A DNA stretch of 55,669 bases from an uncultured virus (IMG/VR IMGVR_UViG_3300044843_001063) (lineage: Duplodnaviria > Heunggongvirae > Uroviricota > Caudoviricetes): IMG/VR virus record IMGVR_UViG_3300044843_001063; one strand, 5' to 3'. Below are positions 5,053 to 52,458 of the stretch, one piece after another. The notes under the pieces were generated by a model, which was not told the DNA's origin, did not search any database, and was given only the letters and a program-made list of their open reading frames with translations. Within the stretch, counting starts at the first letter, position 1; every line of letters begins with the position of its first letter. The position numbers and the translations under genes were made by a program.

Positions 5053-5415
5053 ATGAAAGATAATAATAAAAATAACAGGAGAAATTCCTCGAAAAAGGCA
5101 TCGAAAGGGGGTGAATCTAGCCAGATCTTAGTCAACGATCAATTCGCACACATTGAAGCTGTGCAAGCTCAACCTTTAGAGGTTAAAGTTTATAATAATA
5201 ACTTTGATAAAGCGCTTAAAGCTTTCCGAGCCTTAGTTCAAAAAGAAAGAGTACTCTCCGATTTTAAAGAAAAACAAACTTACGAAAAGCCCTCTGATAG
5301 ACGTCGGAGAAAACGTAATGAAGCCAAAAGAAAGAAACATGAGTCAACTTTCAAAAATACTACTAAAAGTAGTAAATATCGGCCTCAAAAAAACTCTGAC
5401 TCTAATCAAAGTTAG
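5053..5415 (+). CDS. rpsU: Ribosomal protein bS21 homolog with N- and C-terminal extensions
   Basis: VKVYNNNFDKALKAF..V....VL...KEKQTYEKPSDRRRRKR matches the bS21 signature. Confidence 0.88.
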   Translation: MKDNNKNNRRNSSKKASKGGESSQILVNDQFAHIEAVQAQPLEVKVYNNNFDKALKAFRALVQKERVLSDFKEKQTYEKPSDRRRRKRNEAKRKKHESTFKNTTKSSKYRPQKNSDSNQS

Positions 5416-12226: not shown

Positions 12227-12424
12227 ATGGATAAATTACCCATGATTACTAAAGAATACCTATTATCTCTAATTTCTGAAGAAAAAGAAAAATTTAGTAA
12301 ATATTCTCAATCATGCACAAATTATCAAATAATCATCGATCCACTGGCTACAGCCAGACATCAGGGCAAATTGGAAATACTTCAGCTTTTACTTCTCAAG
12401 GAGAAAGTTTTATCCAAAACTTAA
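12227..12424 (+). CDS. Possible small hypothetical protein overlapping the next gene
   Basis: ORF; a TTGACA at 12209 suggests the start may be at 12242. Confidence 0.4.
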   Translation: MDKLPMITKEYLLSLISEEKEKFSKYSQSCTNYQIIIDPLATARHQGKLEILQLLLLKEKVLSKT

Positions 12425-12945
12425 TCATTCAAGCTAACTCTATTCCTCTAAATAATTTATTTAATTTCTATAAAATATCCATTAATCCAGTTACTAAAAT
12501 GACGGTATGTCCTTTTAAATCCCATAAGGGAGGAAGAGAACAGACGCCGTCATTTAAATATTATGCCCATTCTAATTCCTTTAATTGTTTTGGGTGTAAA
12601 ATTGGTGGAGGAGGCTGCCAATTAGTAATGAATTTAGAAAATTGTTCTAAAATTCAGGCAGCAGAAAAAATTATGGCTAGGTGGGGAGAGGACTGCACTA
12701 ATGATGGTGATGTTTTTAACGCCTATTCCTATCAAAATCAAGAAGAAAGATTTAAATTATTATTGAAATTTTCTCAAATTATGAGAGACTTCTATTCGGT
12801 ATATCAAACGCCATGCGCTCTAGCGCATATGGAACAAGCCTGTCAAAAATTTGATTCTTTATTCTTTAAAAGAAATTTAAGCGATGAAGCAATCACTCGA
12901 ATAATTGAACAGATGCAGATTCATTTGTCTTATTTCAAACCTTAA
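12313..12945 (+). CDS. Stand-alone DnaG-type CHC2 zinc-binding domain protein
   Basis: CPFKSH..REQTPSF..Y...NSFNCFGCKIGG....VM.LE......AA; no Toprim domain. Confidence 0.85.
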   Translation: MHKLSNNHRSTGYSQTSGQIGNTSAFTSQGESFIQNLIIQANSIPLNNLFNFYKISINPVTKMTVCPFKSHKGGREQTPSFKYYAHSNSFNCFGCKIGGGGCQLVMNLENCSKIQAAEKIMARWGEDCTNDGDVFNAYSYQNQEERFKLLLKFSQIMRDFYSVYQTPCALAHMEQACQKFDSLFFKRNLSDEAITRIIEQMQIHLSYFKP

Positions 12946-20625: not shown

Positions 20626-21873
20626 ATGCACATTGAAGTAAGAGAAATTGAGCCGTGTAAATTATGCGTTCAGTATACTGCTGAACCGAGTGAAATATCA
20701 GATAAAAAAGAAGAGGTGGTTGCTCGCTTTAAAAAAGCGCCTGTCTCTGGATTTCGGACTGGAAAAGTTCCGACAGATGTTATCAAAATGCATTATCGTA
20801 CCCAAATCGAAGATGCATTGAAAGTTGCTTTAGCTGAAGAGGCATATCATAATGCTTTATTCGAAAAAAAACTTCGACCTCATGGAGCACCGAAGCTAAA
20901 TTCAGCTATTTTAGTAGATGGTAAATTTGTCTGTGAATTTGAAATGCATACTAAACCAGAATTTCAACTCATGACTTATGATGGTATGCAGATTCCTCGA
21001 CCACATGAAGCCTTGACGGTGACGGAATTAACTGAAAAAATGTTACAGGAATTACGAGTCAAATATGGCGATTCTGTACCCTATGCCGATAATGAATTTG
21101 TCCAAGTTGGAGATACTGTGATTGTAGATTATGAAGGATCTATTAATGGTGAAGTATTGCCTCATTTGTCAGCCACTGGAGAAATGATTACAGTTGGCCA
21201 TAGTAATTTGCCGCAATTTGATGACAATGTCTTAGGGATGTCTATTGGTGAAACTAGAGAATTTGATATTGTAGTACCGCAAAATAGCTTACCTTCTCTC
21301 AGTGGCAAAACTGTACATTTAAAAGTAACTCTTAATATGGGTTCTAAAAATGTACCTCATCCATTAGATGATACCTTGGGTCAAAAATTAGGCAAGAAAG
21401 ACCTACAAGAATTAAGAATGGCCGTAGGCGCCACCGCGATGGCCACGGTAGAAAATAAAGTTAAGGAATCTATTAATGAAGCGGTAGCTATTAAATTAGT
21501 CGAGATGCATGAAATTAACGTTCCTAATTGGATGGCTTTATCAGAAGCTCAATATTTAGTCCATGGTGCTAAATTAGATTGGAATGCTTTGAGAGATGAA
21601 GATAAAGATATGTATGTAGCCATGGCGGCTAAGAATGTTAAGCTATCTCTGATTCTAGATAGAATTAGAGATGATAACCCAGAGGCACAACTAACTGATC
21701 AGGAAGTATTTGATATGATTAAGAGAAATCTAATGCAATCTAATATGCAACAACCATTAGAGCAAGTAGTGCAGCAAATGCAAAAGAGCGGCTATTTACA
21801 AGTATTGTTTGCTCGAATTAGAGATGAGCATGCGATGGATTTTGTGACTAAAAAAGTTCAACTTATTGATTGA
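20626..21873 (+). CDS. tig: Trigger factor
   Basis: Ribosome-binding signature GFRTGKVP, FKBP-like GDTVIVDYEG..F...VLGM.IGE, C-terminal helical domain. Confidence 0.9.
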   Translation: MHIEVREIEPCKLCVQYTAEPSEISDKKEEVVARFKKAPVSGFRTGKVPTDVIKMHYRTQIEDALKVALAEEAYHNALFEKKLRPHGAPKLNSAILVDGKFVCEFEMHTKPEFQLMTYDGMQIPRPHEALTVTELTEKMLQELRVKYGDSVPYADNEFVQVGDTVIVDYEGSINGEVLPHLSATGEMITVGHSNLPQFDDNVLGMSIGETREFDIVVPQNSLPSLSGKTVHLKVTLNMGSKNVPHPLDDTLGQKLGKKDLQELRMAVGATAMATVENKVKESINEAVAIKLVEMHEINVPNWMALSEAQYLVHGAKLDWNALRDEDKDMYVAMAAKNVKLSLILDRIRDDNPEAQLTDQEVFDMIKRNLMQSNMQQPLEQVVQQMQKSGYLQVLFARIRDEHAMDFVTKKVQLID

Positions 21874-23259: not shown

Positions 23260-26200
23260 ATGACTGACTTTGTCTCGTTACATAATCAGACGGATTTCTC
23301 TATTCTTGATTCTTTAATGTCCCCCAAAGCACTCTTTAATCGAGCCAAAGAATTGGGCCAATCTGCAGTCGCAGTCACAGATCACGGCACACTAGCCGGA
23401 GCCTGGGATTCCTTAAAAGCTTCCCGAGAGACTGGCGTTAAACTTATTATGGGCTGTGAAATCTACTTTGTAGAAGATGCCCAAAATATTACCGATAAAT
23501 TTAGACATTTAACCCTGTTAGCTAAAAATGCTAATGGTTATAAGAACTTACTCACTCTCAATAAAAAGGGCTTTGATCAGGGCTCTTTTATTGGCAAGAG
23601 AGTATATCCTATTGTCGATTGGAAGTTGTTAGAACAATGTTATAACGGGCTAATTTGTCTCACTGGTTGTGGCAATGGAATCATTAGCCAATTATTAATG
23701 AATAAAAAGTTTGATGAAGTAGAAACTACTGTCCTGAAACTGAAACAGTTATTTGGAGATAATTTAGGCATTGAAATTCTTCCCAATAATATGAAGCGGG
23801 GCTCTAATATTTATAATGATGAAATTGATCAACAATTTCTCAATATGAAGCTGATTAATTTGGGCAAAACACACAATATTAAAATTGTGCCCACCTGCAA
23901 TGCTCATTATGTGAAGAAAGAAGATCATGATATTCATGATGTTTTTCTAGCTATTGGTTCTCATCAACCAAAATATTCTAATTTTAGAATTAAATATAAT
24001 GTACCAGATTTTTATCTTAAATCTGCCGAAGAAGTTAAAAACTTCTTTGCTAGAAATCATGGCGAAGAATTAGCAGAAGAATGGTGTAATAATACGGTAT
24101 ATTTCGCCAATTTATGCGAAACTCCAGATTGGATTGACCCTAAATACTCTAATCCTTCTGGAAAAGAATTACCGATCTTCCCGGTCAAAGATGAGACAGA
24201 TTATCCTGAATTTGTACACTGGCTGGAACTTCAACCGCCAGAAGTTAAATTATTAGATATTGATAAACAATATTTGAGATTTAAATGTCAAGCCGCTTTT
24301 TCCTCTCGTATTAAGGATTTATCTCCTGATAATATGGAAAACTATCAACAGCGCTTGTTAGAAGAGCTAGATGTTATTGAATATCATGGCTTTTCTAGCT
24401 ACATGTTAATTGTGGCAGATTATATTAATTGGGCTCGTCGTAATGAGATTGCCGTAGGAGAAGGTCGAGGCTGCCTCACGGGTGATACCCAAGTCTTAAC
24501 TACTCAAGGATTTAAATTAATCAAAGACCTGTCTGTGACAGATACTGTGTTTAGTCATACTGGAAATATGAAAACTATTTCTAAATTATTTAAATTTGAC
24601 GTATCCAATGAAAAATTATTAAAGTTTAAAACACAGCAATCGTTTACGGACCTCACCATGACTTCGGATCATAAGGTGCTAATTGCTAAATCTCAAGATT
24701 TAGATAAATATTATTTTTACCCACCTAAAAAAGTTAAAGGTAAAATTAAAAGCTTTAATCCCCACTTGGAATGGGTGCCGGCTCACCAAATAAAAGTAGG
24801 AGATTATTTCTTTACTCCTAAATTAAATCGTTCCATTGACAACTTATCAGATATTGATCTTGCTCAATACAGCGACTCAATCATAGAAAATGATTTTATT
24901 GTCAGCAAAATTTACTTTACTAGCCCCCTCTCTTTACGCGCTTTACATAAAGTATCTCCAATCAGCTTTGAAAGTTTGAGAAAAATCAAAAATAACAAAC
25001 CTATTGCTGATACACAAATTAATTTACTTCAACAATACCTGTCTTCTACTGGGTCGTCTCTTCAAGATTTTGTCAATCATAAAAACTATAAATATAGCCG
25101 AATTCAAAGATTTATTAAAATTGATAATGATTTCGCTTATTTATTAGGCCGATGGATCGGTGATGGATCCTTTCATGGAAATAAAGGGATTTCTATCTGT
25201 TTTAATAGTAAAGATATCGTAGGTCGAGAAAAAATAAAATCCTATCTCACTAAACTAGGATTTTATGTCTGCCAAGAAAATAGAAAAAATAATAATACCT
25301 TATTAACTGTTTCTAATAAGGCTATGTATTCTTTATTTAAAGAATTATTTCCGAATTATCATAGTTCTCAAACTAAACATATGCCAAATATTTTTCGTTT
25401 ATTTTCTGATGAACTAATTCGTCATCTGTTATTAGGATTATTAGAATCAGATGGTTGTGTTAATAATTATGAAAAAATAAAAACTACTAGCCAAACTTTA
25501 GCTCTGCAAGTAAAAGAAGCGTTAAATTATTTATCACTCCCCTCCTCTATTTATACAGAAGAAAACCCGAAAAGATATCAAGTAGCTACCTCTACTGCTT
25601 TTACCATTGCTTTTAATGGAATTAAAACTAAACCTAATCCACATATCCACCGAACAAATCAAGGTTTTTATAGTAAAGTAGTTAGTATAGTGGAAACTAC
25701 TGCTGATTTTGTCTATGATTTTACTGTTCCAGATGATCATAGCTATCTTACTACCAGTGGAATAGTTCATAATAGTGTAGGAGGCTCTTTAATTGCTTTC
25801 TTACTAGGAATTCATCAAGCAGACCCGATTAAGTATGATCTGATTTTTGCTCGATTTCATAATAAGGAGAAGAGCAGCTTTCCGGATATAGACACCGACT
25901 TCGCCCCCTCAGGTCGCGAAAAAGTCCAAGCCTATGTTCGCCAAAAATATGGAGAGGAACACGTAGCCCACGTCTCTAACGTTAATACTATTACCCCCAA
26001 GGTGTATGTTCGCGATATTGCGAGAGCCTGCGAATTAGGCGGCTCCAGAGAAGAAGCCGTTCGGATTGGTAATGATGTTGCCGATTGCATTCCATCAGAT
26101 ATTCATTCCATTGATGATGCGTTAGCTAAAGTTCCATTATTTGCTGAATATTGTAAAAAATATCCAGAATTAGAAAAGTATAAAAGCATTTGCGGAAAAT

Positions 26201-27246
26201 ATCGAGCTTGGTCTACTCATGCCGGAGGAATTATTATTTCTGCCCGACCACTAACCGGATTAATTCCCCTGAGACGAGATAAAGATGGTGCCCTAGCTAT
26301 TGAATATGATAAAGATAAAGCAGAAGAAAACGGTCTAGTTAAAATGGATACTTTAGGTCTCTCCACTTTAGATATTATTGGAGAAACTTATCGTATTATT
26401 AAAGAACGCGGCAAAGAAGTGCCTCCCGATCAATTAGATTATGATGTTCATGATGCTCCTTCTTATGATTTGATTGCTAATGGCGATACCTTTTGCGTCT
26501 TTCAATTAGGGACTAGTGCTGGTACCGTAGACTTATGCCGTCGAATTAAACCAGATAGTATCAATGATTTAGCCAATATTAATGCCTTGGCCCGACCCTC
26601 CGCTCGTGAGATGAGAAATGATTTCATTAAAACTAAAAATGGAGGTAAGCCGGTTGCTTTATTGCATTCTAAATTAGCTCGAGCTTTTAATAGTACTTAT
26701 GGCTTCGGATTATATGAAGAATGTTTAATGTATCTGGCTCAAGATATTGCTGGTTGGAGCTTGCACTCAGCTGATAGATTAAGAAAATTAACTAAAGAAA
26801 AAGGTAAGAATCCTAAAAAGGTCCAACAATGGAAAGCAGAATTTATTGCTGATTCTGTTAAAATGGGCGTTCAAGAATTAATTGCTCAACGTATATGGAG
26901 TGAGGTAATTGAGCCTTTCCAGGGATATGGGTTCAACCGTTCCTTGTCCCTTTTTGAAATGATTGATATATATTCTAATGATGGTAGATTTATAAAGTCT
27001 AAACCTATAGGAGAAGTAAAACCAGGAGAATATGTGCGTTCACGAGATGAAGCTACTCAAAAAGAGATTTTTGTCGAAGTAAAGGCGAATCATGATCATG
27101 GTATTTTACCTTTAGTAGAGGTAGAATTAGAAACCGGCGAAACAGTCAAATGTACTATGGATCATAAGTTTAGAATTCAAGAAAATAAAGAGATGGTGCC
27201 ATTATGGCAAATCTTAAGAGACAATTTATCAATAGTGTTAGGTTAA
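23260..27246 (+). CDS. dnaE: DNA polymerase III alpha, N-terminal part (contains one cis intein, ends in split-intein N fragment)
   Basis: PHP domain (LHNQTDFS, AVTDHG), GRG|S, FPDIDTDF, HAGGII, LVKMDTLGL, YGFNR. Confidence 0.97.
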   Translation: MTDFVSLHNQTDFSILDSLMSPKALFNRAKELGQSAVAVTDHGTLAGAWDSLKASRETGVKLIMGCEIYFVEDAQNITDKFRHLTLLAKNANGYKNLLTLNKKGFDQGSFIGKRVYPIVDWKLLEQCYNGLICLTGCGNGIISQLLMNKKFDEVETTVLKLKQLFGDNLGIEILPNNMKRGSNIYNDEIDQQFLNMKLINLGKTHNIKIVPTCNAHYVKKEDHDIHDVFLAIGSHQPKYSNFRIKYNVPDFYLKSAEEVKNFFARNHGEELAEEWCNNTVYFANLCETPDWIDPKYSNPSGKELPIFPVKDETDYPEFVHWLELQPPEVKLLDIDKQYLRFKCQAAFSSRIKDLSPDNMENYQQRLLEELDVIEYHGFSSYMLIVADYINWARRNEIAVGEGRGCLTGDTQVLTTQGFKLIKDLSVTDTVFSHTGNMKTISKLFKFDVSNEKLLKFKTQQSFTDLTMTSDHKVLIAKSQDLDKYYFYPPKKVKGKIKSFNPHLEWVPAHQIKVGDYFFTPKLNRSIDNLSDIDLAQYSDSIIENDFIVSKIYFTSPLSLRALHKVSPISFESLRKIKNNKPIADTQINLLQQYLSSTGSSLQDFVNHKNYKYSRIQRFIKIDNDFAYLLGRWIGDGSFHGNKGISICFNSKDIVGREKIKSYLTKLGFYVCQENRKNNNTLLTVSNKAMYSLFKELFPNYHSSQTKHMPNIFRLFSDELIRHLLLGLLESDGCVNNYEKIKTTSQTLALQVKEALNYLSLPSSIYTEENPKRYQVATSTAFTIAFNGIKTKPNPHIHRTNQGFYSKVVSIVETTADFVYDFTVPDDHSYLTTSGIVHNSVGGSLIAFLLGIHQADPIKYDLIFARFHNKEKSSFPDIDTDFAPSGREKVQAYVRQKYGEEHVAHVSNVNTITPKVYVRDIARACELGGSREEAVRIGNDVADCIPSDIHSIDDALAKVPLFAEYCKKYPELEKYKSICGKYRAWSTHAGGIIISARPLTGLIPLRRDKDGALAIEYDKDKAEENGLVKMDTLGLSTLDIIGETYRIIKERGKEVPPDQLDYDVHDAPSYDLIANGDTFCVFQLGTSAGTVDLCRRIKPDSINDLANINALARPSAREMRNDFIKTKNGGKPVALLHSKLARAFNSTYGFGLYEECLMYLAQDIAGWSLHSADRLRKLTKEKGKNPKKVQQWKAEFIADSVKMGVQELIAQRIWSEVIEPFQGYGFNRSLSLFEMIDIYSNDGRFIKSKPIGEVKPGEYVRSRDEATQKEIFVEVKANHDHGILPLVEVELETGETVKCTMDHKFRIQENKEMVPLWQILRDNLSIVLG
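24472..25773 (+). mobile_element. 434-aa intein with LAGLIDADG endonuclease
   Basis: GRG|CLTGDT...TSDH...LLGRWIGDG...LLGLLESDG...VYDFTV..HSY....IVHN|SVGGSL. Confidence 0.95.
26941..27243 (+). mobile_element. Split intein N fragment (101 aa, begins with Ser)
   Basis: YGFNR|SLSL...HDHG...LETGETVKCTMDHKF (block B TxxH)...then a stop codon. Confidence 0.9.
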
Positions 27247-27247
27247 A

Positions 27248-28462
27248 ATGGGAAATGTCAGCAAACCAATAGATTATTATCTTCAAAAAATTCCAGAACC
27301 ATTTAGATCAAATGTTTCTTTAATGGAAGACTATCAAGGTAATAGAACTAAAATATCTTTTAATTTTTCATGTGGGTGTCAGATACAAGAACAATTTAAG
27401 GTTTTTCTTAAGAGGCCGCGATTTGATTTTTGCACCTCATGTGCTAAGAAAAATAGTCAAACTTATAGTTGTCAGTATTGCTGTCAAGAATTTACTGTGC
27501 AACGACATTTGGAAAATTGTCAGCAAAAATGCCAAAATAAATATGCACAACTCATTTTGGGTACAGATTATGTAATTTGCCAGATTTGTAATTTACATGC
27601 AAGAAGTCTAGGGGCACATGTTACTAAGAAGCACAATATATCTCATAAAGAATATCGTGAAAAATATGGAAGTTTAATTTGCACTGAGGCTTCTAAAAAT
27701 TATAAAGAAAGCGGTCAATATAATAGAGAGTGGATTACTCGTGCTCATTTAAATGGCACAGATTTAACCGAATATAGAAAAAAGTTATCTACAGCTGTTA
27801 AAGAGGCAATAATGTCAAATCCGGAAGAACGAAAAAGACGTTCCGAGTTAATGGCTACTATTAATAAAACAGAGAATATGCGGATTAAATCTTCTAAATC
27901 GGCCAAAATAACCTCTGCTAAACCAGAAATTTTAGAAAAAAGAACTAAGCAATTACAAAAATGGAGAGAAGAAAACCCAGAGTTATTTTATAACCAATGT
28001 ACCGCTCCAATGATTAAATCATTTCAAAGTAAACCAGAAAGAATATTATTTAATTATTTCTCGCAATTAAAACCTTTTAATTTTAAAAGAAACCAATTTA
28101 TAAAATCTAAGTATTTTACTAATTTTTCTAAGAAGAAACAAGTAGATATAATTGATTTGGATAATAGAATTTATATAGAGTTTGATGGTAAAGTTCATTT
28201 TAAGCCTATTTTTGGCGATTCTGTTCTCTTAAAAACTAAATTAAGAGATCAAGAATTAGAAAAAGTTATTACATCTAACAATTGGATTCTAATTAGAATT
28301 AGCTACGATCAATTTGTTTATACTACTAAAAATATTAATAAAATTAAACATGATGCATCTTATTTCAAACCAGAAAGCCTTCAACAAATAGAAGCAATAC
28401 TTAAATCAAAGCAACCAGGTGTTTACAAAATCGGAGAGGCATATAATAGCTCAAAATCATGA
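27248..28462 (+). CDS. Free-standing putative homing endonuclease (zinc fingers plus Vsr/DUF559-like PD-(D/E)XK domain) between the dnaE halves
   Basis: CQIC..H...H, SKPE, QVDII...IYIEFDGKVHF, RD......W.LIRI. Confidence 0.8.
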   Translation: MGNVSKPIDYYLQKIPEPFRSNVSLMEDYQGNRTKISFNFSCGCQIQEQFKVFLKRPRFDFCTSCAKKNSQTYSCQYCCQEFTVQRHLENCQQKCQNKYAQLILGTDYVICQICNLHARSLGAHVTKKHNISHKEYREKYGSLICTEASKNYKESGQYNREWITRAHLNGTDLTEYRKKLSTAVKEAIMSNPEERKRRSELMATINKTENMRIKSSKSAKITSAKPEILEKRTKQLQKWREENPELFYNQCTAPMIKSFQSKPERILFNYFSQLKPFNFKRNQFIKSKYFTNFSKKKQVDIIDLDNRIYIEFDGKVHFKPIFGDSVLLKTKLRDQELEKVITSNNWILIRISYDQFVYTTKNINKIKHDASYFKPESLQQIEAILKSKQPGVYKIGEAYNSSKS

Positions 28463-28569
28463 CTAATATTAAAACTATTAAATACATTGGCAATCATGCT
28501 ACGTGTGATTTGGAAGTAGATCATCCGGATCATCAATTCTACTTATCGAATGGAATGTTAACCTCAAAC
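28459..28569 (+). mobile_element. Split intein C fragment (37 aa)
   Basis: MTNIKTIKYIGNHATCDLEVDHPDHQFYLSNGMLTSN|S. Confidence 0.92.
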
Positions 28570-29697
28570 TCTCATGCGGTCTTATATTCCATGACCAGTT
28601 ATAAGACTTCTTATTTAAAGGCCCATTATCCGGTTGAGTTTTTATTGGCTAATTTAATGGCCGAAGTAAAATCTAATGCTCCAGATGCAGGGAGTAATAT
28701 CAATAAAATTAAGAAAGAATTAAAAGCACACAAGGTTAAGATTTCTCCTCCGGATATTAATTCGTCTAATTTGACTTATACTATTTCTGAAGGTAATAAA
28801 TTATTAACCGGTTTAGATTCTTTAAAATTCGTGGGAGACGATGCGATTAAAGATATTATTCAAAAACGTCCTTTCAAAAGCTTTTTTGATTTCATGCATC
28901 GAGTGGATTCCAAAAAAGTCAGAGCTAATAGTATTCAAGCCTTAGCGGCAGCTGGTGCCTTAGAAAAATTTGGTATCCCTAGAAAGCTTATTTTCTTATA
29001 TTGTTCAGATTTTAGAAAGAAATTACAAGTTTGGTTAAAGAAACATGACCCTCAACAAGAAGAGTTTATTTATCCTTGGCCTTCGGAACCGGATTGGTCA
29101 TTGTCAGAACAATATGCGTTAGAGCAATATTATTTAGGAGAATCTTTTATTTGTAAAGCGCCTGAGGCGTATGGTAAGTTTTTCAAAAGCCCTCATCATG
29201 TTATTTATGAAATTAAAAAAGCTAACAACAAAACCAAGATTTCGCCCATTAAAGGAATAGTTAAAGATTTCTTCGAATTCAAAGTTAAAAAAGAGACAAG
29301 TAGTTATTATGGTCAATCTATGGTGAAAGCTATTATTGAAGATAAAGAAGGAGACCAATGCTCTTGTACTATTTTTCCAGATCGTTGGCAATTAATACAG
29401 AAACGATTAAAAGAATTAAATAGCAAAGCTATATTTGATGTTGGCTTGGCTTTAAGTTTTTCTGGCAGTGTTAATACTTATGAAGATGAAGTTGGCATTA
29501 TTTTAGAAGAATTATTAGATATTTCTCCAATTCCAGCTTTACCTACTGATTTAAAAGCCAAGCGAGTCAATTTAAAGGAAGCTAAATTAAAAAATAAAGA
29601 GCCGGTGACTGAGGCGAAAAATGTTTTGGATGAAATTGAAGATTTATTATATGATGAGGGTCTAATTGATTTAGATACCGATCCGGATAACGATTAA
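28459..29697 (+). CDS. dnaE: DNA polymerase III alpha, C-terminal part, preceded by the split-intein C fragment
   Basis: N|SHAVLYS..SY..YLKAHYPVEF, PPDINSS, HhH, OB fold. Confidence 0.95.
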   Translation: MTNIKTIKYIGNHATCDLEVDHPDHQFYLSNGMLTSNSHAVLYSMTSYKTSYLKAHYPVEFLLANLMAEVKSNAPDAGSNINKIKKELKAHKVKISPPDINSSNLTYTISEGNKLLTGLDSLKFVGDDAIKDIIQKRPFKSFFDFMHRVDSKKVRANSIQALAAAGALEKFGIPRKLIFLYCSDFRKKLQVWLKKHDPQQEEFIYPWPSEPDWSLSEQYALEQYYLGESFICKAPEAYGKFFKSPHHVIYEIKKANNKTKISPIKGIVKDFFEFKVKKETSSYYGQSMVKAIIEDKEGDQCSCTIFPDRWQLIQKRLKELNSKAIFDVGLALSFSGSVNTYEDEVGIILEELLDISPIPALPTDLKAKRVNLKEAKLKNKEPVTEAKNVLDEIEDLLYDEGLIDLDTDPDND

Positions 29698-36401: not shown

Positions 36402-36724
36402 AAGTTTCTGCGATGTGTCCTGTGTGTCAAAAAGCGCAAGAGCCTTATTTGGATCCGCGTAGTAATAAAGTATATTGTTCTTTATGCGATGCAGAAATTA
36501 AAAATATTTCACATTTTGCTAAGATTCAAATGCAAACGACTAAACAAATAAGAATTCCGACTAAGGGAATTTCTGTTAAATGCAATAAATGTAAAAATGA
36601 TAGTCGGCCTCAAATAGTAGAGGCTAAAGTAGTGTGTGGAACTTGTGCCGGACCCTTAGATAATTTAACTCCTATTTTTAAAGAAATGTTAAAAGAGCTC
36701 TTGAAAAAAGAAGAGAATGATTAA
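36398..36724 (+). CDS. Double zinc-ribbon protein
   Basis: CPVC..CSLC, CNKC..CGTC; GGAGG SD. Confidence 0.7.
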   Translation: MKVSAMCPVCQKAQEPYLDPRSNKVYCSLCDAEIKNISHFAKIQMQTTKQIRIPTKGISVKCNKCKNDSRPQIVEAKVVCGTCAGPLDNLTPIFKEMLKELLKKEEND

Positions 36725-36728
36725 TTCT

Positions 36729-37325
36729 ATGCAAGAAATTAAGATAGATTATTTTGGCACTAAACATTATTATTGGAATGGTCAGCGACATCGAGAAGAT
36801 GGCCCTGCCGTAGAATATGCTGATGGAACTAAGATGTGGTTTATTCATGGTTTGAAGCATCGAGAAGATAGACCAGCTGTAGAGCATGCTAATGGAGATA
36901 AAGAATGGTGGCTTCATGGCCAAAGACATCGAGTAGGTCATCCAGCTTATGAGGGTGCTGATGGATCTAAACAATGGTGGCTTCATGGAAAACGGCATCG
37001 AGAAGATGGCCCGGCTCTAGAATGTGTTAATGGAACTAAAGAGTGGCGGATTCATGATCAACTCCATCGAGCAGATGGCCCAGCCCATGAAGGCGCTGAT
37101 GGAATGAAAAAATGGTGTCTTCATGGTCAATTCCATCGAGAAGATGGTCCTGCATTAGAACATGCTGATGGATCCAAATTTTGGTTTATTCATGGCCAAC
37201 AACATAGAGAAAATGGCCCTGCTATAGAATACTCTAATGGAGCAAAACAATTTTGGTTACAAAATTCTTTAATTCTTTCAGAAGAAGAATATTGGAGAAT
37301 ACTTAAGTTGAAAGCATTATGGTGA
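36729..37325 (+). CDS. HREDGPA-repeat protein 1 (7 repeats)
   Basis: MQEIK start, 23-aa units, EEEYWRILKLKALW end. Confidence 0.9.
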   Translation: MQEIKIDYFGTKHYYWNGQRHREDGPAVEYADGTKMWFIHGLKHREDRPAVEHANGDKEWWLHGQRHRVGHPAYEGADGSKQWWLHGKRHREDGPALECVNGTKEWRIHDQLHRADGPAHEGADGMKKWCLHGQFHREDGPALEHADGSKFWFIHGQQHRENGPAIEYSNGAKQFWLQNSLILSEEEYWRILKLKALW

Positions 37326-37328
37326 AAT

Positions 37329-37577
37329 ATGCAAGAAATTAAAAATTATAAAGATGGCACTTCCAAATATTATTGGAATGGCCGATTACATCGAGAAGAT
37401 GGTCCAGCGATAGAATGGTCTCATGGCACTAAAGAATGGTATCTTCATGGAAAATGTCATCGAGAAGATGGTCCAGCAATAGAGTGGACTAATGGAGATA
37501 AATATTGGTACCTTCAAGGTAAACAATATTCGGAGCAAGAATATTGGAGACGAGTTAAACTAAAAGCTTTATGGTGA
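37329..37577 (+). CDS. HREDGPA-repeat protein 2 (2 repeats)
   Basis: Same cap-repeat-tail architecture. Confidence 0.9.
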   Translation: MQEIKNYKDGTSKYYWNGRLHREDGPAIEWSHGTKEWYLHGKCHREDGPAIEWTNGDKYWYLQGKQYSEQEYWRRVKLKALW

Positions 37578-37581
37578 AGTT

Positions 37582-38034
37582 ATGCAAAAAATTAAAGAAG
37601 ATCACTGGGGAAAATATTATTATTGGAATGGTCTCTTCCATCGAGAAGATGGTCCAGCAGCAGAATTCTACAATGGAGATAAAGATTGGTATTATTATGG
37701 TCAACGTCATCGAGAAAATGGACCAGCCAGAGAATTTGCTCATGGCCATAAAGAATGGTGGCTTCATGGTCAACGTCATCGGGAAGATGGTCCAGCCAGA
37801 GAATATTATGATGGGTCTAAAGAATGGTATCTTCATGGAAAATGTCATCGAGAAGATGGTCCAGCGGCAGAATATTCTAATGGAGACAAATTATGGTATT
37901 TTAAAGATCAGCTTCATCGAGAAAATGGTCCAGCTATAGAATGTGAAGATGGTGCTAAAAGCTGGTATCTTCAAGATAAAGAATATTCAGAAGAAGAATA
38001 TTGGAGAGTAGTGAAATTAAAAGCTTTATGGTAA
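37582..38034 (+). CDS. HREDGPA-repeat protein 3 (5 repeats)
   Basis: Same architecture. Confidence 0.9.
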   Translation: MQKIKEDHWGKYYYWNGLFHREDGPAAEFYNGDKDWYYYGQRHRENGPAREFAHGHKEWWLHGQRHREDGPAREYYDGSKEWYLHGKCHREDGPAAEYSNGDKLWYFKDQLHRENGPAIECEDGAKSWYLQDKEYSEEEYWRVVKLKALW

Positions 38035-38043
38035 ATAGTTATT

Positions 38044-38802
38044 ATGTTTAATAAAATTATTGATGCTTGCAAATATTTGCTGACTAGCTTTCCAGAAGCT
38101 CAAACTAGCAAAGAATATCTAGATTCAAGAATCTCCGCTAGTAGTCAAGAACTATTTGATTTTGGATTTTTCCCCAATTTAGATAATTTGCCCGTATTAA
38201 TTGATTTGGTCGGAGAAGCTGAACTAATTAATAGTAATTTGCTGTATTCCAAAATTATTGAAGATTCTGGAGGGATTAGGTCTCTTAATTTTTGTTATTT
38301 TGAACATTATCCTATTATTATGCCGTTTAAAGATCCATATGGGGAAATAGTTGGTATTGTGGGTCGAACCTTATTAAGCGAATCAGAATATAAAAACTTA
38401 GGTATACCTAAATACAAGAATACTAAGAACTTTAAAAAAGGCAATTTTTTATTCGGCTTATATGAAAATAAAGAACATATTATTAAAAATAATAGCGTTT
38501 ATTTGGTAGAGGGTCAATTTGATGTAATTAAAGCAAGAGAAAAAGGCTTTAATAATATGGTAGCCTTAGGGACTTCTAGTATGACAGATTATCAATTCTC
38601 TGTTTTAAGTCGTTATACCGATAATATATTTTTATTATTGGATAATGATGAGGCCGGAGAAAAGGGTCGTAAATTTATTACCCATAAATATGGCAAATAT
38701 GCAAATATTCAAAACTTTTACTTGCCTGATCAGTACAAGGATGTAGATGATTATTTTTCATTATCTCAAGAAGATACCTTATCGTTTGCAGTTAAAGTGT
38801 GA
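38044..38802 (+). CDS. dnaG: DnaG primase catalytic core (Toprim) without a zinc-binding domain
   Basis: IIMPF.D..G.IVG..GR, PKYKNT, FKKG..LFGL, LVEGQFDV, VALGT, LDNDEAG, KDVDD. Confidence 0.9.
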   Translation: MFNKIIDACKYLLTSFPEAQTSKEYLDSRISASSQELFDFGFFPNLDNLPVLIDLVGEAELINSNLLYSKIIEDSGGIRSLNFCYFEHYPIIMPFKDPYGEIVGIVGRTLLSESEYKNLGIPKYKNTKNFKKGNFLFGLYENKEHIIKNNSVYLVEGQFDVIKAREKGFNNMVALGTSSMTDYQFSVLSRYTDNIFLLLDNDEAGEKGRKFITHKYGKYANIQNFYLPDQYKDVDDYFSLSQEDTLSFAVKV

Positions 38803-38814
38803 AATGGTTAACTT

Positions 38815-39333
38815 ATGCAAAAAATATTAAAAAGAAAAGGAATTATAGAATATATTTCTTACGGCAAACGTCATCGAGAAGATGGCCCGGCAGCAATATG
38901 GTTTAATGGAGATAAATCCTGGTATCTTCATGGTCATCTTCATCGAATAGATGGCCCGGCATTAGAATGGACTAATGGACATCAAGAATGGTGGCTTCAT
39001 GATCAACGCCATCGAGACGATGGGCCTGCAATTGAGTATTTAAATGGAGATAAAGAATGGTGGATTCATGGAAAGCGCCATCGAGAAGGCGCTCCAGCCA
39101 TAGAAAGTTTCAGTGAGAAACGATGGTATCTTCATGGTCATCTTCATCGAGAAGATGGTCCAGCGATAGAGTTGCCTAATGGACGTAAAGAGTGGCATCT
39201 TCATGATCAATGCCATCGAGAAGATGGTCCGGCAATAGAAGATGCTTATGGAAATAAATGGTGGTACTTTCAAGGTAAAAATTATACAGAAAAAGAATAT
39301 TGGAGAGTACTTAAATTGAAAGCTTTATGGTAA
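38815..39333 (+). CDS. HREDGPA-repeat protein 4 (6 repeats)
   Basis: Same architecture; one unit is 22 aa. Confidence 0.9.
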   Translation: MQKILKRKGIIEYISYGKRHREDGPAAIWFNGDKSWYLHGHLHRIDGPALEWTNGHQEWWLHDQRHRDDGPAIEYLNGDKEWWIHGKRHREGAPAIESFSEKRWYLHGHLHREDGPAIELPNGRKEWHLHDQCHREDGPAIEDAYGNKWWYFQGKNYTEKEYWRVLKLKALW

Positions 39334-39336
39334 AGT

Positions 39337-39723
39337 ATGCAAGAAATTAAAAAAGAGATATGTGGCGCTAAAAAATATTATTGGAAGTATCAGCTACATC
39401 GAGAAGATGGGCCAGCCATAGAATGGCATGATGGATCTAAAGAATGGTGGATTCATGGTCAACTTCATCGAGAAGATGGTCCGGCAGTAGAATATACTAA
39501 TGGAGAGAAATTTTGGTATCTTTATGGTAAATGCCATCGAGAAGATGGACCTGCCGTAGAATGGTTTAATGGAAATAAATATTGGTTTTTTCATGGTCAA
39601 CGTCATCGAGAAGATGGCCCAGCTATAGAGCATTCTGATGGATTGAAAGCTTTTTATCTTCAAGGAAAAGACTATTCAGAAGAAGAATATTGGCGATTAG
39701 TTAAATTAAAAGGTTTGTGGTAA
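39337..39723 (+). CDS. HREDGPA-repeat protein 5 (4 repeats)
   Basis: Same architecture. Confidence 0.9.
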   Translation: MQEIKKEICGAKKYYWKYQLHREDGPAIEWHDGSKEWWIHGQLHREDGPAVEYTNGEKFWYLYGKCHREDGPAVEWFNGNKYWFFHGQRHREDGPAIEHSDGLKAFYLQGKDYSEEEYWRLVKLKGLW

Positions 39724-39727
39724 CACA

Positions 39728-40114
39728 ATGCAAGAAATTAAGATAGATATATTTGGTACCAAAAAATATTATTGGAATGGTCGATTGCATCGAGAAGATG
39801 GGCCAGCGATAGAATATTCTGATGGAACTACAGTGTGGTTTCTTCATAATAAGAAACATCGAGAAGATGGTCCGGCAGTAGAAACTATTGATGGAGATAT
39901 GGGTTGGTATCGTTATGGAGAATTACATCGAGAAAAAGAGCCCGCCATTATATTAAATAATGGGGAGAAATCTTGGTGGCTTCATGATCAACGGCACAGA
40001 GAGGATGGGCCCGCCGTAGAATTTGCTAATGGAGAAAAAGAGTGGTTTCTTCAAGGCACAGAATATTTAGAAGAAGAATATTGGCGCTTAGTTAAACTAA
40101 AGGGTTTGTGGTAA
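39728..40114 (+). CDS. HREDGPA-repeat protein 6 (4 repeats)
   Basis: Same architecture. Confidence 0.9.
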   Translation: MQEIKIDIFGTKKYYWNGRLHREDGPAIEYSDGTTVWFLHNKKHREDGPAVETIDGDMGWYRYGELHREKEPAIILNNGEKSWWLHDQRHREDGPAVEFANGEKEWFLQGTEYLEEEYWRLVKLKGLW

Positions 40115-40118
40115 TAAT

Positions 40119-40505
40119 ATGCAAAAAATTAAGATAGATAAAGATGGTAATAAAAGATATTATTGGAATAATAAGTTACATCGAGAAGATGGTCCGGCCA
40201 TAGAATGGTTTAATGGACGTAAAGATTGGTACCTTCATGGTCAACGACATCGAGAAGCGGGACCAGCAGTAGAATATGAGAATGGAGATAAAGAATGGTT
40301 TATCCATGGAAAATATCATCGAGAAGATGGCCCAGCCAGAGAATTTTTTTGGGGAGGTAAAGAATGGTTTCTTCACGGTCAACTCCATCGAGAAGATGGA
40401 CCAGCCATAGAATATGCTAGTGGAGAAAAATATTGGTACCTTCAAGGCAAAGAATATACAGAAGAAGAGTATTGGCGAGTGGTTAAATTAAAAGCTTTGT
40501 GGTAA
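40119..40505 (+). CDS. HREDGPA-repeat protein 7 (4 repeats)
   Basis: Same architecture. Confidence 0.9.
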   Translation: MQKIKIDKDGNKRYYWNNKLHREDGPAIEWFNGRKDWYLHGQRHREAGPAVEYENGDKEWFIHGKYHREDGPAREFFWGGKEWFLHGQLHREDGPAIEYASGEKYWYLQGKEYTEEEYWRVVKLKALW

Positions 40506-40508
40506 AGT

Positions 40509-40829
40509 ATGCAAGAAATAAAAATAAATGAACGTGGGACTAAAAGATACTATTGGAATGATGAATTACATCGAGAAGATGGTCCGGCCATAGAGAGGAG
40601 TAATGGAGATAAAGAATGGTGGATTCATGGCAAAAGACATCGAGAAAATGGTCCCGCTATAGAATATATTAATGGATATAAAGAATGGTATCTTCATGGT
40701 CAATGTCATCGAGAAGATGGTCCAGCCATAGAATATGCCGATGGTTATCAAGAATTTTGGCTAAATAACCGCTTTATTTCTTCAAAAGAAGAATATTGGC
40801 GGTTAGTTAAGTTGAAAGCTCTATGGTAA
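40509..40829 (+). CDS. HREDGPA-repeat protein 8 (3 repeats)
   Basis: Same architecture. Confidence 0.9.
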   Translation: MQEIKINERGTKRYYWNDELHREDGPAIERSNGDKEWWIHGKRHRENGPAIEYINGYKEWYLHGQCHREDGPAIEYADGYQEFWLNNRFISSKEEYWRLVKLKALW

Positions 40830-50106: not shown

Positions 50107-52458
50107 ATGAAATTACGTAATTTATTAGATCAAATGCAATCTATATCTAATAAAATCGGCTCGTCTCAGCCGATGATCTGTGGAGGTACGCCTCGGGATC
50201 AGTATATGGAAAGATTAGATCATATTGCTGATCTAGATATTACTACTGGAGATAAAAAAGTACAATTTTTAGCGCAAGAATTTGGTAATGCATTAGCTAA
50301 ACAATATGATGTCACGACTAAAATTCATGAAGATGGTCACGGAACTATTTATTTAGGTGATTTTAAAATTGATTTTTCTTCCAATTTTAATATTCCTAAT
50401 ATTGATAATATTTTGATTAAACAAGGTATTACTAAGCCAACTAGTATGCAAAAAGAAATGTTTAGTCGAGATTTTACTTGTAATTCATTATTATTATCCT
50501 TAGATCTAAAAAATGTCATCGATCCTACTTATCACGGATTACAAGATATTGATCAGAAAATAATTAGAACTTGTTTATCTCCAGAAATTACTTTATTAAC
50601 TAATAAAAATAGAGTGGTTCGTGCTATTTATTTGGCCTCCAAATTAGATTTTAATATTGATCCCAATATTATCAGCTATGTGGCGGCACATCCAGAGTCA
50701 GTAAAAATCTCGACTCCTAAATCTTTAACAGAAAAACTAAATTCTGCTTTTGAATTTAATCCGGAACGTGCCGCTTTTTATCTGACTCAGATGAATTTGT
50801 GGAATTATGTTCCTATTACTCCTGTTATGAGACCATTTTTTATGAAAAAAAATACCACCGTTTCTTATATTTTATCTAAATATGCTGCCATTTCATCCGT
50901 GTCAGAAGCCAAACAATTGTTTGGTTTATTGGAAAATTTTACAGAAGAAGATGTAAAAAAGAAATATAAAGAATTAGTGGTGAAAAATTATCCCGATGTT
51001 AATCCTGTTAATGGTCATGAGAAAATGTTAGATATTACTCAAGCTAAAGAAATACTATTAAAAAGCCTGACTACTCCAGAGCCTGTATTATTAAAGGAAG
51101 AAGAACCATGGAGACATTCTTATCATACGCCTGTCTCTGAATATATGGATGATGAAAAATGGGAATATTATACCAATCCAGAAATATTTAAACAATATCA
51201 AAAAGATTTTGAAGCTGAGCAAAATTATCATCAATATGATGAGGATAGTTCAAGATTAAGAGAACAAGCAGAAGAAGATAGAATTTATAATCTCAGAGAT
51301 AATATCGTCTCTATTTTAGAAAAAGTTAACCCGAATAAATTAGTAGAAGATTTTGGAGTGGATCTCGATGCCACTTCAATAAAAGAACTAGGTTTAGGTA
51401 ATTTAGCCTCAAATCAAGATGGAATAGAATTAAGTGATTTAATTTCAGCGGCTATTCTCGAGATCATCTATTATGACCATCCTAAATATTTACCTAAATT
51501 ATTAGAATTAGATTATTTTAAAAATGCAGTTCGTTCAAATAATTATATGAACAAGAACATGTCAGACTTGCTAAACAAGATAGATAATGAAAATATTAAT
51601 AAATTATTTTTGACCAGTAAACTTTCTCTTAAAGATTTATCTAATTATCGAGATGAGCAGGGTATTATTGATGTGTTATTAAATAATCAAAATAAAGTAG
51701 TTACTGATTTATTGCAAGCTAAAAATCCACTAGATATGGTAGTTTGGTTTAGCGCTCCAGTGTTAAAAAATGTTTCTTACATCTTGCTAGACCAAGAACA
51801 AACTAAGCCGATAGTAAAATTATTAGATTTGGTTAAGAGACAATTAAACCAAAAAATAAAAACAGCTTATTTTCAAGGTGGGGGAGGAGTCAACGAACCC
51901 ACTCCGAAAAAACGAAAATATAAAATAGATCCGGCCGAAGTAGTCCAGCCGAGATTTGAAGAGCCGTTTTATCGTAATTATGATCTATATAATGTTCCTG
52001 GTAAATATGGTCCGGGCACTAGAAAAAATCCTAAAAACTTAAAAGGCAAATATAAAGCTAAAAAAACTGCTCGAACTAAAGTCTTATCTAATCTCTTAAA
52101 AGTAGCCATTGACTTTCCTTCTGATAACCAAGTTAATCCAGAATTAATTACTGGTCAGCAAAATAACTTAATGGAATATCTTAATCCGGCCGGAGGATAT
52201 TTAGATAAATATCTTCCTGATAATGATTTGGAAGATAAAGACCCCACCAAATTAAACTTTGGTCGAGATTATGCCGATCAACCCACAGGGCCTAAAATCG
52301 ATAATATTGAAAAATTATTAGAACAATATTTGCCGACTGATTTGTATGGATTACCAGATGGAGTCGATGTCACAGAAGAAGAATTAGACCAACCTAATGA
52401 TATTAATCCATTTTATGGTACCTTAGGCCCTAATAGTTTGATTCATCAACGCTACTAA
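50107..52458 (+). CDS. CCA-adding/poly(A) polymerase-family nucleotidyltransferase fused to a degenerate J domain and an acidic tail
   Basis: CGGTPRD...DLDI...RDFTCNSL...DP...GLQDI...R..RAI; then VKKKYKELV.KNYPD.NP......M..I..A.EIL. Confidence 0.8.
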   Translation: MKLRNLLDQMQSISNKIGSSQPMICGGTPRDQYMERLDHIADLDITTGDKKVQFLAQEFGNALAKQYDVTTKIHEDGHGTIYLGDFKIDFSSNFNIPNIDNILIKQGITKPTSMQKEMFSRDFTCNSLLLSLDLKNVIDPTYHGLQDIDQKIIRTCLSPEITLLTNKNRVVRAIYLASKLDFNIDPNIISYVAAHPESVKISTPKSLTEKLNSAFEFNPERAAFYLTQMNLWNYVPITPVMRPFFMKKNTTVSYILSKYAAISSVSEAKQLFGLLENFTEEDVKKKYKELVVKNYPDVNPVNGHEKMLDITQAKEILLKSLTTPEPVLLKEEEPWRHSYHTPVSEYMDDEKWEYYTNPEIFKQYQKDFEAEQNYHQYDEDSSRLREQAEEDRIYNLRDNIVSILEKVNPNKLVEDFGVDLDATSIKELGLGNLASNQDGIELSDLISAAILEIIYYDHPKYLPKLLELDYFKNAVRSNNYMNKNMSDLLNKIDNENINKLFLTSKLSLKDLSNYRDEQGIIDVLLNNQNKVVTDLLQAKNPLDMVVWFSAPVLKNVSYILLDQEQTKPIVKLLDLVKRQLNQKIKTAYFQGGGGVNEPTPKKRKYKIDPAEVVQPRFEEPFYRNYDLYNVPGKYGPGTRKNPKNLKGKYKAKKTARTKVLSNLLKVAIDFPSDNQVNPELITGQQNNLMEYLNPAGGYLDKYLPDNDLEDKDPTKLNFGRDYADQPTGPKIDNIEKLLEQYLPTDLYGLPDGVDVTEEELDQPNDINPFYGTLGPNSLIHQRY

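What the first reader, a model, noticed from the sequence alone, without database searches (positions are those of the whole stretch)
36729..40829. Eight-gene repertoire of variable-repeat HREDGPA proteins with a constant C-terminal tail
Seen: eight paralogs with 7, 2, 5, 6, 4, 4, 4 and 3 copies of a 23-aa unit (HREDGPA-h-E-xx-[ND]G-x-K-x-W-x-h-HG-xx). The framework is fixed, while the dipeptide after hE and the residues around K/W vary strongly and are often aromatic (YA, WS, FY, WF, YE, FF...). Each protein has an MQ[EK]I cap and ends in E[EQK]EYWRx[VL]KLK[AG]LW-stop. Known: the unit resembles MORN-like beta-hairpin repeats, and repeat scaffolds with variable surface residues act as binders. 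Inference: this is a diversified set of target-binding adaptors (for example anti-defence or host-takeover factors) whose invariant tail docks on one shared partner, such as a protease, chaperone or packaging machine. That would be a phage analogue of ankyrin/F-box or VLR repertoires.
Basis: partly seen in the sequence, partly recalled or inferred. Interest (0 to 1): 0.82.

Follow-up and report, generated by a model that had tools for sequence, protein, structure and literature searches.

The report
Phage repeat proteins sharing docking tail
A giant lake phage has dozens of small repeat proteins that swap short DNA patches and end in a short tail also found on many unrelated small proteins of related phages, which looks like an undescribed address tag read by one still unknown partner.

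Summary
In detail: eight genes and 35 units, in two blocks around the primase. They are an outpost of a far larger family. Contig G002, very probably the same phage, holds 75 more (83 genes, 70 with the tail). The fold is MORN-like. Paralogues exchange patches of about 40-56 bp: gene 8 has two alleles, each matching a different donor paralogue. Point-mutation positive selection was not found (omega 0.14 framework, 0.50-0.76 variable sites).

The scan reported this array before on other assemblies (e1-5377279, e1-5377286). New here is that the tail is portable. The motif [KR]-h-x-K-L-x-x-F-x-COOH ends 48-124 ORFs in each of three near-complete relatives (under 1 expected). The 222 non-repeat carriers fall into 174 BLAST clusters. 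The motif is strictly terminal and kept at protein level. In this lineage its Phe became Leu both in the repeat proteins and in 4 of 5 unrelated orthologues.

Best reading: variable binders plugged by a common tag into one partner. That partner is unidentified; candidates are the clade's MoxR-vWA-metallopeptidase and its ClpP pair. Targets, host and expression are unknown.

The parts
36729..37325 (+). g1: 7-unit HREDGPA repeat protein with KLKALW tail (alternative ATG at 36717)
37329..37577 (+). g2: 2-unit protein with KLKALW tail
37582..38034 (+). g3: 5-unit protein with KLKALW tail
38044..38802 (+). DnaG-type primase catalytic core (Toprim); core gene that separates the two blocks, not part of the family
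   Evidence: array absent beside 28 of 28 orthologues at 52-66% identity
38815..39333 (+). g4: 6-unit protein (one 22-aa unit) with KLKALW tail
39337..39723 (+). g5: 4-unit protein with KLKGLW tail
39728..40114 (+). g6: 4-unit protein with KLKGLW tail
40119..40505 (+). g7: 4-unit protein with KLKALW tail; modelled at pLDDT 92.5; shares a 56-bp identical tract with G002:50471
40509..40829 (+). g8: 3-unit protein with KLKALW tail
40638..40689 (+). 52-bp gene-conversion tract in g8 unit 2, identical to paralogue G002:49594. It contains the 11 clustered differences (40647-40671) from same-strain contigs, whose allele matches paralogue G002:116631 over 55 bp with 1 mismatch
40791..40829 (+). C-terminal tag helix EYWRLVKLKALW-stop of g8, shown as the example; the same tag ends all eight genes

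Best explanation
These are modular phage adaptor proteins. Each has 2-7 MORN-like beta-hairpin units: a fixed frame and one tolerant, aromatic-rich face that probably binds a protein target (inferred from MORN4-Myo3a). Each ends in a basic helix whose last residues, K-L-x-x-(F/L)-x-COOH, form a clade-wide address tag read by one shared partner. The same tag is attached to well over a hundred unrelated small proteins in related huge phages. This lineage filled its tagged repertoire mainly by expanding one scaffold to at least 83 genes, and it renews the binding faces by gene birth and death and by short-patch gene conversion between dispersed paralogues. The most likely use is inside the infected cell: bringing bound host or rival proteins to a remodelling or proteolytic machine. 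First candidates are the clade's conserved MoxR AAA+ / vWA-metallopeptidase pair and its ClpP pair; a host machine is also possible. Shown: anatomy, expansion, conversion, and the portability, strict terminal position and concerted change of the tag. Inferred: binding, a single reader, its identity, and the purpose.
For: Fold: AF2 pLDDT 92.5; best PDB matches are MORN1 and MORN4 (Foldseek E 1.6e-4 to 8.6e-4; TMq 0.43-0.49 for 8 of the 9 best rows, 0.30 for the top row); VIA rank 1 is MORN4/Myo3a at Z 7.6, rmsd 4.2, 112 aligned. The MORN groove binds a protein tail with high affinity (PMC7725318 passages). Expansion: 83 genes, 328 units; 218 of 218 internal units distinct; 27% of G002's bases; 273 of 273 HRxxGPA DNA hits in frame. 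Conversion: two g8 alleles, each with its own donor; 32 identical tracts of 35 bp or more, although best whole-gene identity is at most 85%; within-unit runs of 40 bp or more: 3 observed, 0 in each of 20 shuffles. Tag: unseeded count of K(-6) L(-5) F(-2) is 80 of 2505 non-repeat ORFs against 0.75 expected. Profile hits: 124/738 in G010, 61/670 in G006, 48/701 in G012, 40/217 in G014, under 1 expected in each; 10/492 in G007, which was not used for seeding. In G010, 43 of 48 occurrences lie exactly at the C-terminus. Synonymous codons vary. 222 non-repeat carriers form 174 clusters, with 1 TM-like. A Zn-ribbon carrier family has no profile similarity to the repeats (hhalign probability 0.1%). 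Concerted F(-2) to L: 94% of this phage's 70 repeat tails and 4 of 5 unrelated orthologues, whereas core-protein Phe sites change to Leu in only 11 of 385. Candidate readers are conserved in the tagged genomes: vWA-zincin with intact MIDAS and HExxH next to a MoxR-like ATPase, and a ClpP pair without ClpX/A/B/HslU; distant G009 has only a weak zincin match, one ClpP and no tag excess (1/594). Other phage contigs carry repeat arrays, each with its own constant tail.
Against: No omega above 1: framework 0.14, inferred variable face 0.50, four most variable sites 0.76 (F3X4 optimum 0.3-0.6). The variability profile equals that of unrelated homologues, so relaxed constraint explains it as well. 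Aromatic stacking in true MORN grooves is structural. Both carrier folds modelled end in a helix after a beta-meander, so part of the helix may pack on the sheet; a cap-helix motif follows the last unit in 53 of 117 homologues. The vWA-zincin is not a general partner of tailed arrays: found in 1 of 5 other array-bearing records, and absent from one that is 96% complete. This phage's own ClpP and MoxR/vWA genes were not recovered. One of five orthologue pairs has Leu in the relative too. The profile counts for G006, G010 and G012 are partly circular, because the seeds came from them. G002's assignment to this genome is inferred. The host was not identified.
Confidence: 0.55

Rival explanations
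1. The tag is a capsid-loading signal, a C-terminal counterpart of the T4 capsid targeting sequence. Tagged binders are packed into the head and injected with the DNA to neutralise defences at entry.
For: In T4, a 10-residue CTS is shared by divergent internal proteins and is portable to foreign proteins (PMC9026906 passages). A conserved SLT-domain protein in the terminase/head gene cluster ends R-K-F-L-[LM]-K-F-[IV] in G006, G010 and G012. Carriers are small (median 106 aa) and soluble.
Against: 48-124 different carriers per genome is far more than T4's few internal proteins. Carriers are sparse in the structural region (histogram; C-termini listed). The tag is C-terminal and no cleavage site was seen. 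No dedicated promoters were found.
Confidence: 0.15
2. The tag is a C-terminal degron that makes many early proteins short-lived through host or phage proteases; the repeat proteins act alone, as binders or decoys.
For: Strictly terminal, basic then hydrophobic, with an uncharged last residue in 214 of 222 carriers. This resembles basic-hydrophobic ClpX and FtsH/Tsp C-terminal signals (recalled, not tested). The clade encodes a ClpP pair.
Against: A fixed helical spacing back to position -9/-11 and a near-invariant penultimate aromatic suggest a shaped pocket rather than a loose degron. Spending 27% of a contig on proteins built to be destroyed is costly.
Confidence: 0.12
3. The expansion is largely selfish or neutral, an accordion of recombining repeats; most copies do nothing specific.
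For: Omega at most 0.76 at variable sites. About 5 damaged copies and 4 orphan tails in G002. The conserved DNA core CATCGAGAAG (Arg codon CGA 96% against 23% genome-wide) could drive recombination. Copy number is erratic among relatives: 1-10 repeat genes in G006, G007, G010 and G012, against 39 in 91 kb of G014.
Against: Framework omega 0.14; all 273 repeat hits in frame; the tail is kept at protein level and shared with unrelated proteins; independent expansions keep lineage-specific tails.
Confidence: 0.1
4. The tail is a structural capping helix or a membrane-anchoring amphipathic helix, reused because it is convenient; there is no specific protein reader.
For: Both modelled carriers end in a helix after a beta-meander. 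The start of the helix is common across the family (53 of 117). Tails are basic (median charge +2).
Against: The hydrophobic moment of tags (0.26 and 0.21) is no higher than that of other C-termini (0.28). Neither role needs an exact distance to the stop codon, or a concerted F to L change in unrelated folds.
Confidence: 0.08

Closest known systems
MORN-repeat proteins (MORN1 6t68/6t69/6t4d; MORN4-Myo3a 6jle; PMC7725318)
   Same: 23-residue period; single-layer twisted beta-hairpin sheet in the model; aromatic-lined face; best structural matches.
   Different: No GxG or YEGEW motifs (an R-E-D-G-P-A loop instead); no Pfam MORN hit; TM about 0.3-0.5 only; a C-terminal tag helix; phage-encoded in dozens of paralogues.
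Uncharacterised HR-x-x-G-P-A repeat proteins of phages and Mimiviridae (partly caught by Pfam DUF6745)
   Same: Same repeat: BFVD matches with TMq up to 0.91; 31,967 clusters at 50% identity match at E up to 1e-3; same variability profile.
   Different: None found with a described function. Here there is an extreme lineage-specific expansion and a tail shared with unrelated folds.
T4 internal proteins with the capsid targeting sequence (PMC9026906)
   Same: A short portable terminal peptide on otherwise divergent small phage proteins.
   Different: The CTS is N-terminal, cleaved and on a few proteins; this tag is C-terminal and on 7-17% of ORFs; packaging is untested.
Variable-binder plus constant-adaptor repertoires (giant-virus ankyrin/MORN/F-box sets, PMC5753266; SspB-type ClpX adaptors, recalled; phage ClpS and MoxR-vWA-peptidase, PMC7824862)
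   Same: Variable repeat module joined to a constant docking element; lineage-specific duplication; phage-encoded proteostasis machines are present in the clade.

Membership tests
MORN repeat | 23-residue repeat forming stacked beta-hairpins | tested here: met
   (predicted model; middling scores)
MORN repeat | GxG, LxY and YEGEW consensus (PMC7725318); Pfam MORN match | tested here: not met
   Unit profile lacks GxG and YEGEW; no MORN family among Pfam hits of the 8 proteins at E up to 0.05
MORN repeat | Groove binds a partner peptide, or tail-to-tail dimer | not testable with these tools
Pfam DUF6745 | Score at or above the gathering cut-off over the domain | tested here: not met
   7 of 8 window proteins hit at 15.7-26.2 bits against a cut-off of 27, over about 20 of 206 positions; only long multi-unit members pass by summed score
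Diversity-generating retroelement targets | Adenine-specific mutagenesis from a template repeat | tested here: not met
   Some A-consensus sites are nearly fixed (Arg2 third base heterozygosity 0.07; Lys15) and some T/C/G-consensus sites vary; allele differences are donor patches
Diversity-generating retroelement targets | Reverse transcriptase gene in the genome | tested here: inconclusive
   None among 25 window and 102 G002 proteins scanned; much of the genome was not seen
Gene-conversion repertoires (VLR- or antigenic-variation-like) | Short-patch transfer between paralogous units | tested here: met
Gene-conversion repertoires (VLR- or antigenic-variation-like) | Silent donor cassettes feeding one expressed locus | tested here: not met
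   Both donors are intact ORFs of the same family
Gene-conversion repertoires (VLR- or antigenic-variation-like) | Positive selection on the binding face | tested here: inconclusive
   Omega 0.50-0.76, not above 1; conversion moves synonymous sites too and blurs the unit tree
T4-type capsid targeting sequence | N-terminal propeptide cleaved by the prohead protease | tested here: not met
   The shared element is at the extreme C-terminus
T4-type capsid targeting sequence | Sufficient for packaging into heads | not testable with these tools
   Needs virions
Portable docking tag / adaptor tether | Same short motif on unrelated folds, fixed position, protein-level conservation, concerted change | tested here: met
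Portable docking tag / adaptor tether | Identified common receptor | tested here: inconclusive
   Candidates listed by gene content only

The most novel reading that the evidence does not exclude
A clade of 350-480 kb phages runs an F-box-like system without ubiquitin. One phage machine (the MoxR-vWA-metallopeptidase, or the ClpP pair) reads a C-terminal K-L-x-x-F-x tag on 50-120 interchangeable substrate adaptors per genome. This lineage has turned one MORN-like scaffold into a library of at least 83 binders, reshuffled by gene conversion, to destroy or remodel host and rival proteins.
Probability: 0.25. Interest if true: 0.9.

Novelty: new variant of a known kind. Interest (0 to 1): 0.72.

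Why it matters
Most genes of huge phages are small orphans. It would also show how a phage keeps and renews a large binder repertoire (one scaffold, patch exchange, constant plug), a counterpart of giant-virus ankyrin/F-box sets. The repeat family is very large (about 32,000 clusters at 50% identity), and my ten paper searches found no study of it. A stable 23-residue scaffold with a free face is also of protein-engineering interest.

Tried and rejected
Complex prediction of the G010 vWA domain (+Mg) with a G010 tagged repeat fragment gave no verdict (score 0.00, controls not folded). It is no evidence either way; ClpP, MoxR, the BCS1-like AAA, DnaJ and homodimers were not modelled. No RNA holder was listed for the locus; four DNA runs were laid as contigs only. 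In 2 of 4 runs a contig joins donor-type 5' sequence to g8's 3' part, which may be a third allele or an assembly path over the 52-bp shared tract; this is unresolved. Sequence search of the PDB found nothing significant. PHROGs gave only weak unnamed hits and NCBIfam none for the 8 proteins. Of 56 tagged non-repeat proteins, 2 had weak PHROG hits and 1 a weak Pfam hit. The ESM Atlas returned only hypothetical clusters, some about 20% DUF6745. The Zn-ribbon carrier model had no Foldseek match at E up to 0.001. Host search with EF-Ts, LysRS and ClpP was uninformative (27-43% identity, or nothing). DGR was rejected. A DNA-level att-like tail was rejected because synonymous sites vary. Genetic-code reassignment as the cause of F to L was rejected. 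A sliding-clamp motif was considered because the L-x-x-F spacing fits recalled clamp-binding motifs and the clade lacks its own DnaN (0 of 5); it was ranked low because the tag is basic and helical and absent from replication enzymes. Sigma-70 promoter-like sites were not in excess (23 against 32.4 in shuffles). Raw pN/pS of 1.2-1.6 at variable sites was discarded, because the fixed Arg2 codon depresses global pS; codon models replaced it. The rest of this phage's genome could not be reached.
Full report
Observation. The eight ORFs, their unit counts (7, 2, 5, 6, 4, 4, 4, 3; 35 units), caps and tails are as described. A primase gene splits them 3 + 5. The window is part of a huge-phage genome: 53, 63 and 53 of its proteins have matches, largely in the same order, in the near-complete records G006, G010 and G012 (433-481 kb). 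The runs that hold it are labelled lake water. Of 80 primase loci examined, only the three same-strain contigs carry the array. None of the 28 full-length orthologues at 52-66% identity has a repeat gene within the DNA held, up to 6 kb on each side. Both blocks are therefore lineage-specific insertions.

The repertoire is about ten times larger. The tail pattern hit 49 stretches, all in six contigs of this phage lineage. G002 (128.5 kb) holds 75 further repeat genes, 62 of them with the tail; G003 and G005 differ from it by one residue in one gene. G002 is very probably the same genome: it holds the donors of both g8 alleles, a TnpB-like paralogue 88% identical to the window's, and a complementary set of clade orthologues. 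This link is an inference. The total is 83 genes, 70 with the tail, and 328 units; all 218 internal units are distinct. P0031 is one more paralogue, and it has the same longest contig length (259,050 bp) as g2 and the primase. The genes take 27% of G002, and neighbours are mostly 3-4 nt apart. All 273 repeat DNA hits are in frame, but about five copies are damaged and four orphan tails remain, which indicates birth and death. Relatives have 1-10 repeat genes, except G014 with an independent expansion of 39 in 91 kb.

Fold. g7 models at pLDDT 92.5 as stacked hairpins plus a C-terminal helix. The best solved matches are MORN1 and MORN4 (VIA Z 7.6, a middling score). Much closer matches are uncharacterised phage and Mimiviridae proteins. 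The repeat is MORN-like but lacks the MORN consensus (PMC7725318 passages). Positions 1, 2, 5, 6, 7, 13, 15 and 17 are nearly fixed; 10, 11, 14 and 16 are the most variable. From the DSSP strand registers I infer that 8, 10, 14, 16, 18 and 23 share one face (mean entropy 2.54 bits against 0.95; 9 of 1716 partitions reach this). I had no coordinates and made the assignment after seeing the entropies, so this is suggestive only. The same profile holds in 331 units from unrelated homologues.

How diversity arises. Three same-strain contigs match the window over 5.5-12 kb except for 11 substitutions within 25 bp of g8 unit 2 (plus one change near the end of one contig). The window allele is identical over 52 bp to G002:49594. 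The other allele matches G002:116631 over 55 bp with one mismatch. The flanking identities are only 9 and 18-21 bp, too short for an assembler to jump. Genome-wide there are 32 identical tracts of 35 bp or more; flank identity is 40-81% for all but one of the 45 longest, and whole genes are at most 85% alike. This is short-patch gene conversion between intact genes, not DGR mutagenesis. Codon models give omega 0.14 (framework), 0.50 (inferred face) and 0.76 (four most variable sites): relaxed, and not shown to be positively selected.

The tail is a portable tag. A KLKAFW-stop scan listed 80 of 90 stretches. Besides short chance matches, the 75 distinct translations included repeat proteins and several unrelated protein families. 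Whole-record censuses followed. An unseeded count found K(-6) L(-5) F(-2) in 80 of 2505 non-repeat ORFs against 0.75 expected. A profile found 124/738 (G010), 61/670 (G006), 48/701 (G012), 40/217 (G014), 53/239 (G002) and 8/71 (window), with under 1 expected in each. The seeds came from the first three records, and the ORFs were called mechanically. Unseeded G007 gave 10/492 and distant G009 gave 1/594. The consensus is [KR](-9) h(-8) x K(-6) L(-5) x x F(-2) x(-1). In G010, 43 of 48 occurrences sit exactly at the C-terminus, and synonymous codons vary. The 222 non-repeat carriers form 174 BLAST clusters; 1 is TM-like and 84 begin with CxxC. One such Zn-ribbon family folds confidently (pLDDT 94.7) and has no profile similarity to the repeats. 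In this phage the penultimate residue is Leu in 94% of the repeat tails and also in five unrelated tagged proteins. Four of these five have orthologues ending in Phe; the fifth has Leu in its only hit. Conserved Phe in core proteins changes to Leu in only 11 of 385 sites. Concerted change across folds is what a shared reader predicts. Other phage contigs carry the same repeats in arrays, each with its own constant tail.

Who reads it. This is not established. The clade core has a MoxR-like ATPase beside a DUF2201 zincin-vWA protein with intact HExxH and MIDAS, a second AAA, a ClpP pair, a BCS1-like AAA, DnaJ and TubZ, and no ClpX/A/B/HslU or DnaN (0 of 5 each). Iyer et al. describe such MoxR-vWA-peptidase pairs and phage ClpP/ClpS (PMC7824862 passages). 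A metal site that binds carboxylates would explain the strict terminal position (inference; the MoxR/vWA lead came from e1-7991927). However, the zincin occurs in only 1 of 5 other array-bearing records, and this phage's own copies were not recovered. The tag's hydrophobic moment is ordinary, which counts against a membrane anchor. No promoter excess was seen, and the host is unknown.

Literature. Ten searches of the held library returned no paper on the repeat or the tag; I saw listings and abstract starts only. I read search passages of PMC7824862, PMC5753266, PMC7725318, PMC9026906 and PMC7162821. I did not open their supplements, which could list these families, and subscription papers are not held. 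ClpX, SspB, FtsH and clamp motifs are recalled, not looked up. The scan found this array before (e1-5377279, e1-5377286) and different shared tails in other viruses; the word KLKAF was met in no earlier finding.

Verdict. The feature is real and larger than reported. The adaptor-with-shared-dock reading is the best supported (0.55), mainly through the portability of the tag. Diversifying selection, targets and the partner remain unshown. Novelty: new variant of a known kind. Interest 0.72.

Noticed in passing
all repeat units, window 36729-40829 and G002: The Arg of HRE is coded CGA in 96% of 218 units (23% in other genes), while the third positions of Pro6 and Ala7 vary freely. The DNA core CATCGAGAAG borders the g8 conversion tract and may be a recombination anchor.
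   Followed up: partly
G002:34502, 38547, 40773, 50471, 53984: Five long genes string repeat modules in front of a shared, unannotated helical C-terminal domain instead of the tag.
   Followed up: no
G002:60079-60153, 104961, 110790; window 38803-38814: Orphan tail remnants without a gene body (two in tandem at about 60.1 kb). The spacer before g4 resembles a tail end, which suggests insertion or deletion by tail-to-tail recombination.
   Followed up: partly
G012:403718-416830; G006:240501-246498; G010:423629-432818; G002:17227-19929: Tandem runs of tagged Zn-ribbon / beta-meander small proteins, up to about 27 tagged genes in 40 kb of G012: a second expanded payload family with no PDB match.
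   Followed up: partly
G010:275007; G006:122955; G012:238571: A conserved SLT-domain protein near terminase ends in a tag-like R-K-F-L-[LM]-K-F-[IV]; the orthologue in this phage was not reached.
   Followed up: partly
G006:66568-67709; G007:197430-198578: Two adjacent ClpP paralogues in clade genomes with no ClpX/ClpA/HslU ATPase detected.
   Followed up: partly
L368-L419: Other phage contigs have repeat arrays with their own constant tails (about ten types); L382 has an independent KLKALW-type array.
   Followed up: partly
window 12313-12945 and 38044-38802: The primase is split: the CHC2 zinc finger and the Toprim core are separate genes 25 kb apart.
   Followed up: no
window 23260-29697: DnaE is in two ORFs that both match one 1180-aa protein of G010, with a large insert and a 404-aa ORF between them (intein or intron likely).
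   Followed up: no
window 50107-52458: PolyA-polymerase/CCA head domain fused to a DnaJ domain; relatives match it with shorter ORFs (257 aa in G010).
   Followed up: no
window 5053-5415, 20626-21873; G002:10172, 79914, 92936, 123194, 125209: Translation and chaperone genes: S21, trigger-factor-like protein (by eye), IF-1, LysRS, Ro60/TROVE, EF-Ts, GroES.
   Followed up: no
G002 about 19-47 kb: Region of 41-48% GC against about 35% elsewhere, rich in small orphans and in the long repeat genes.
   Followed up: no
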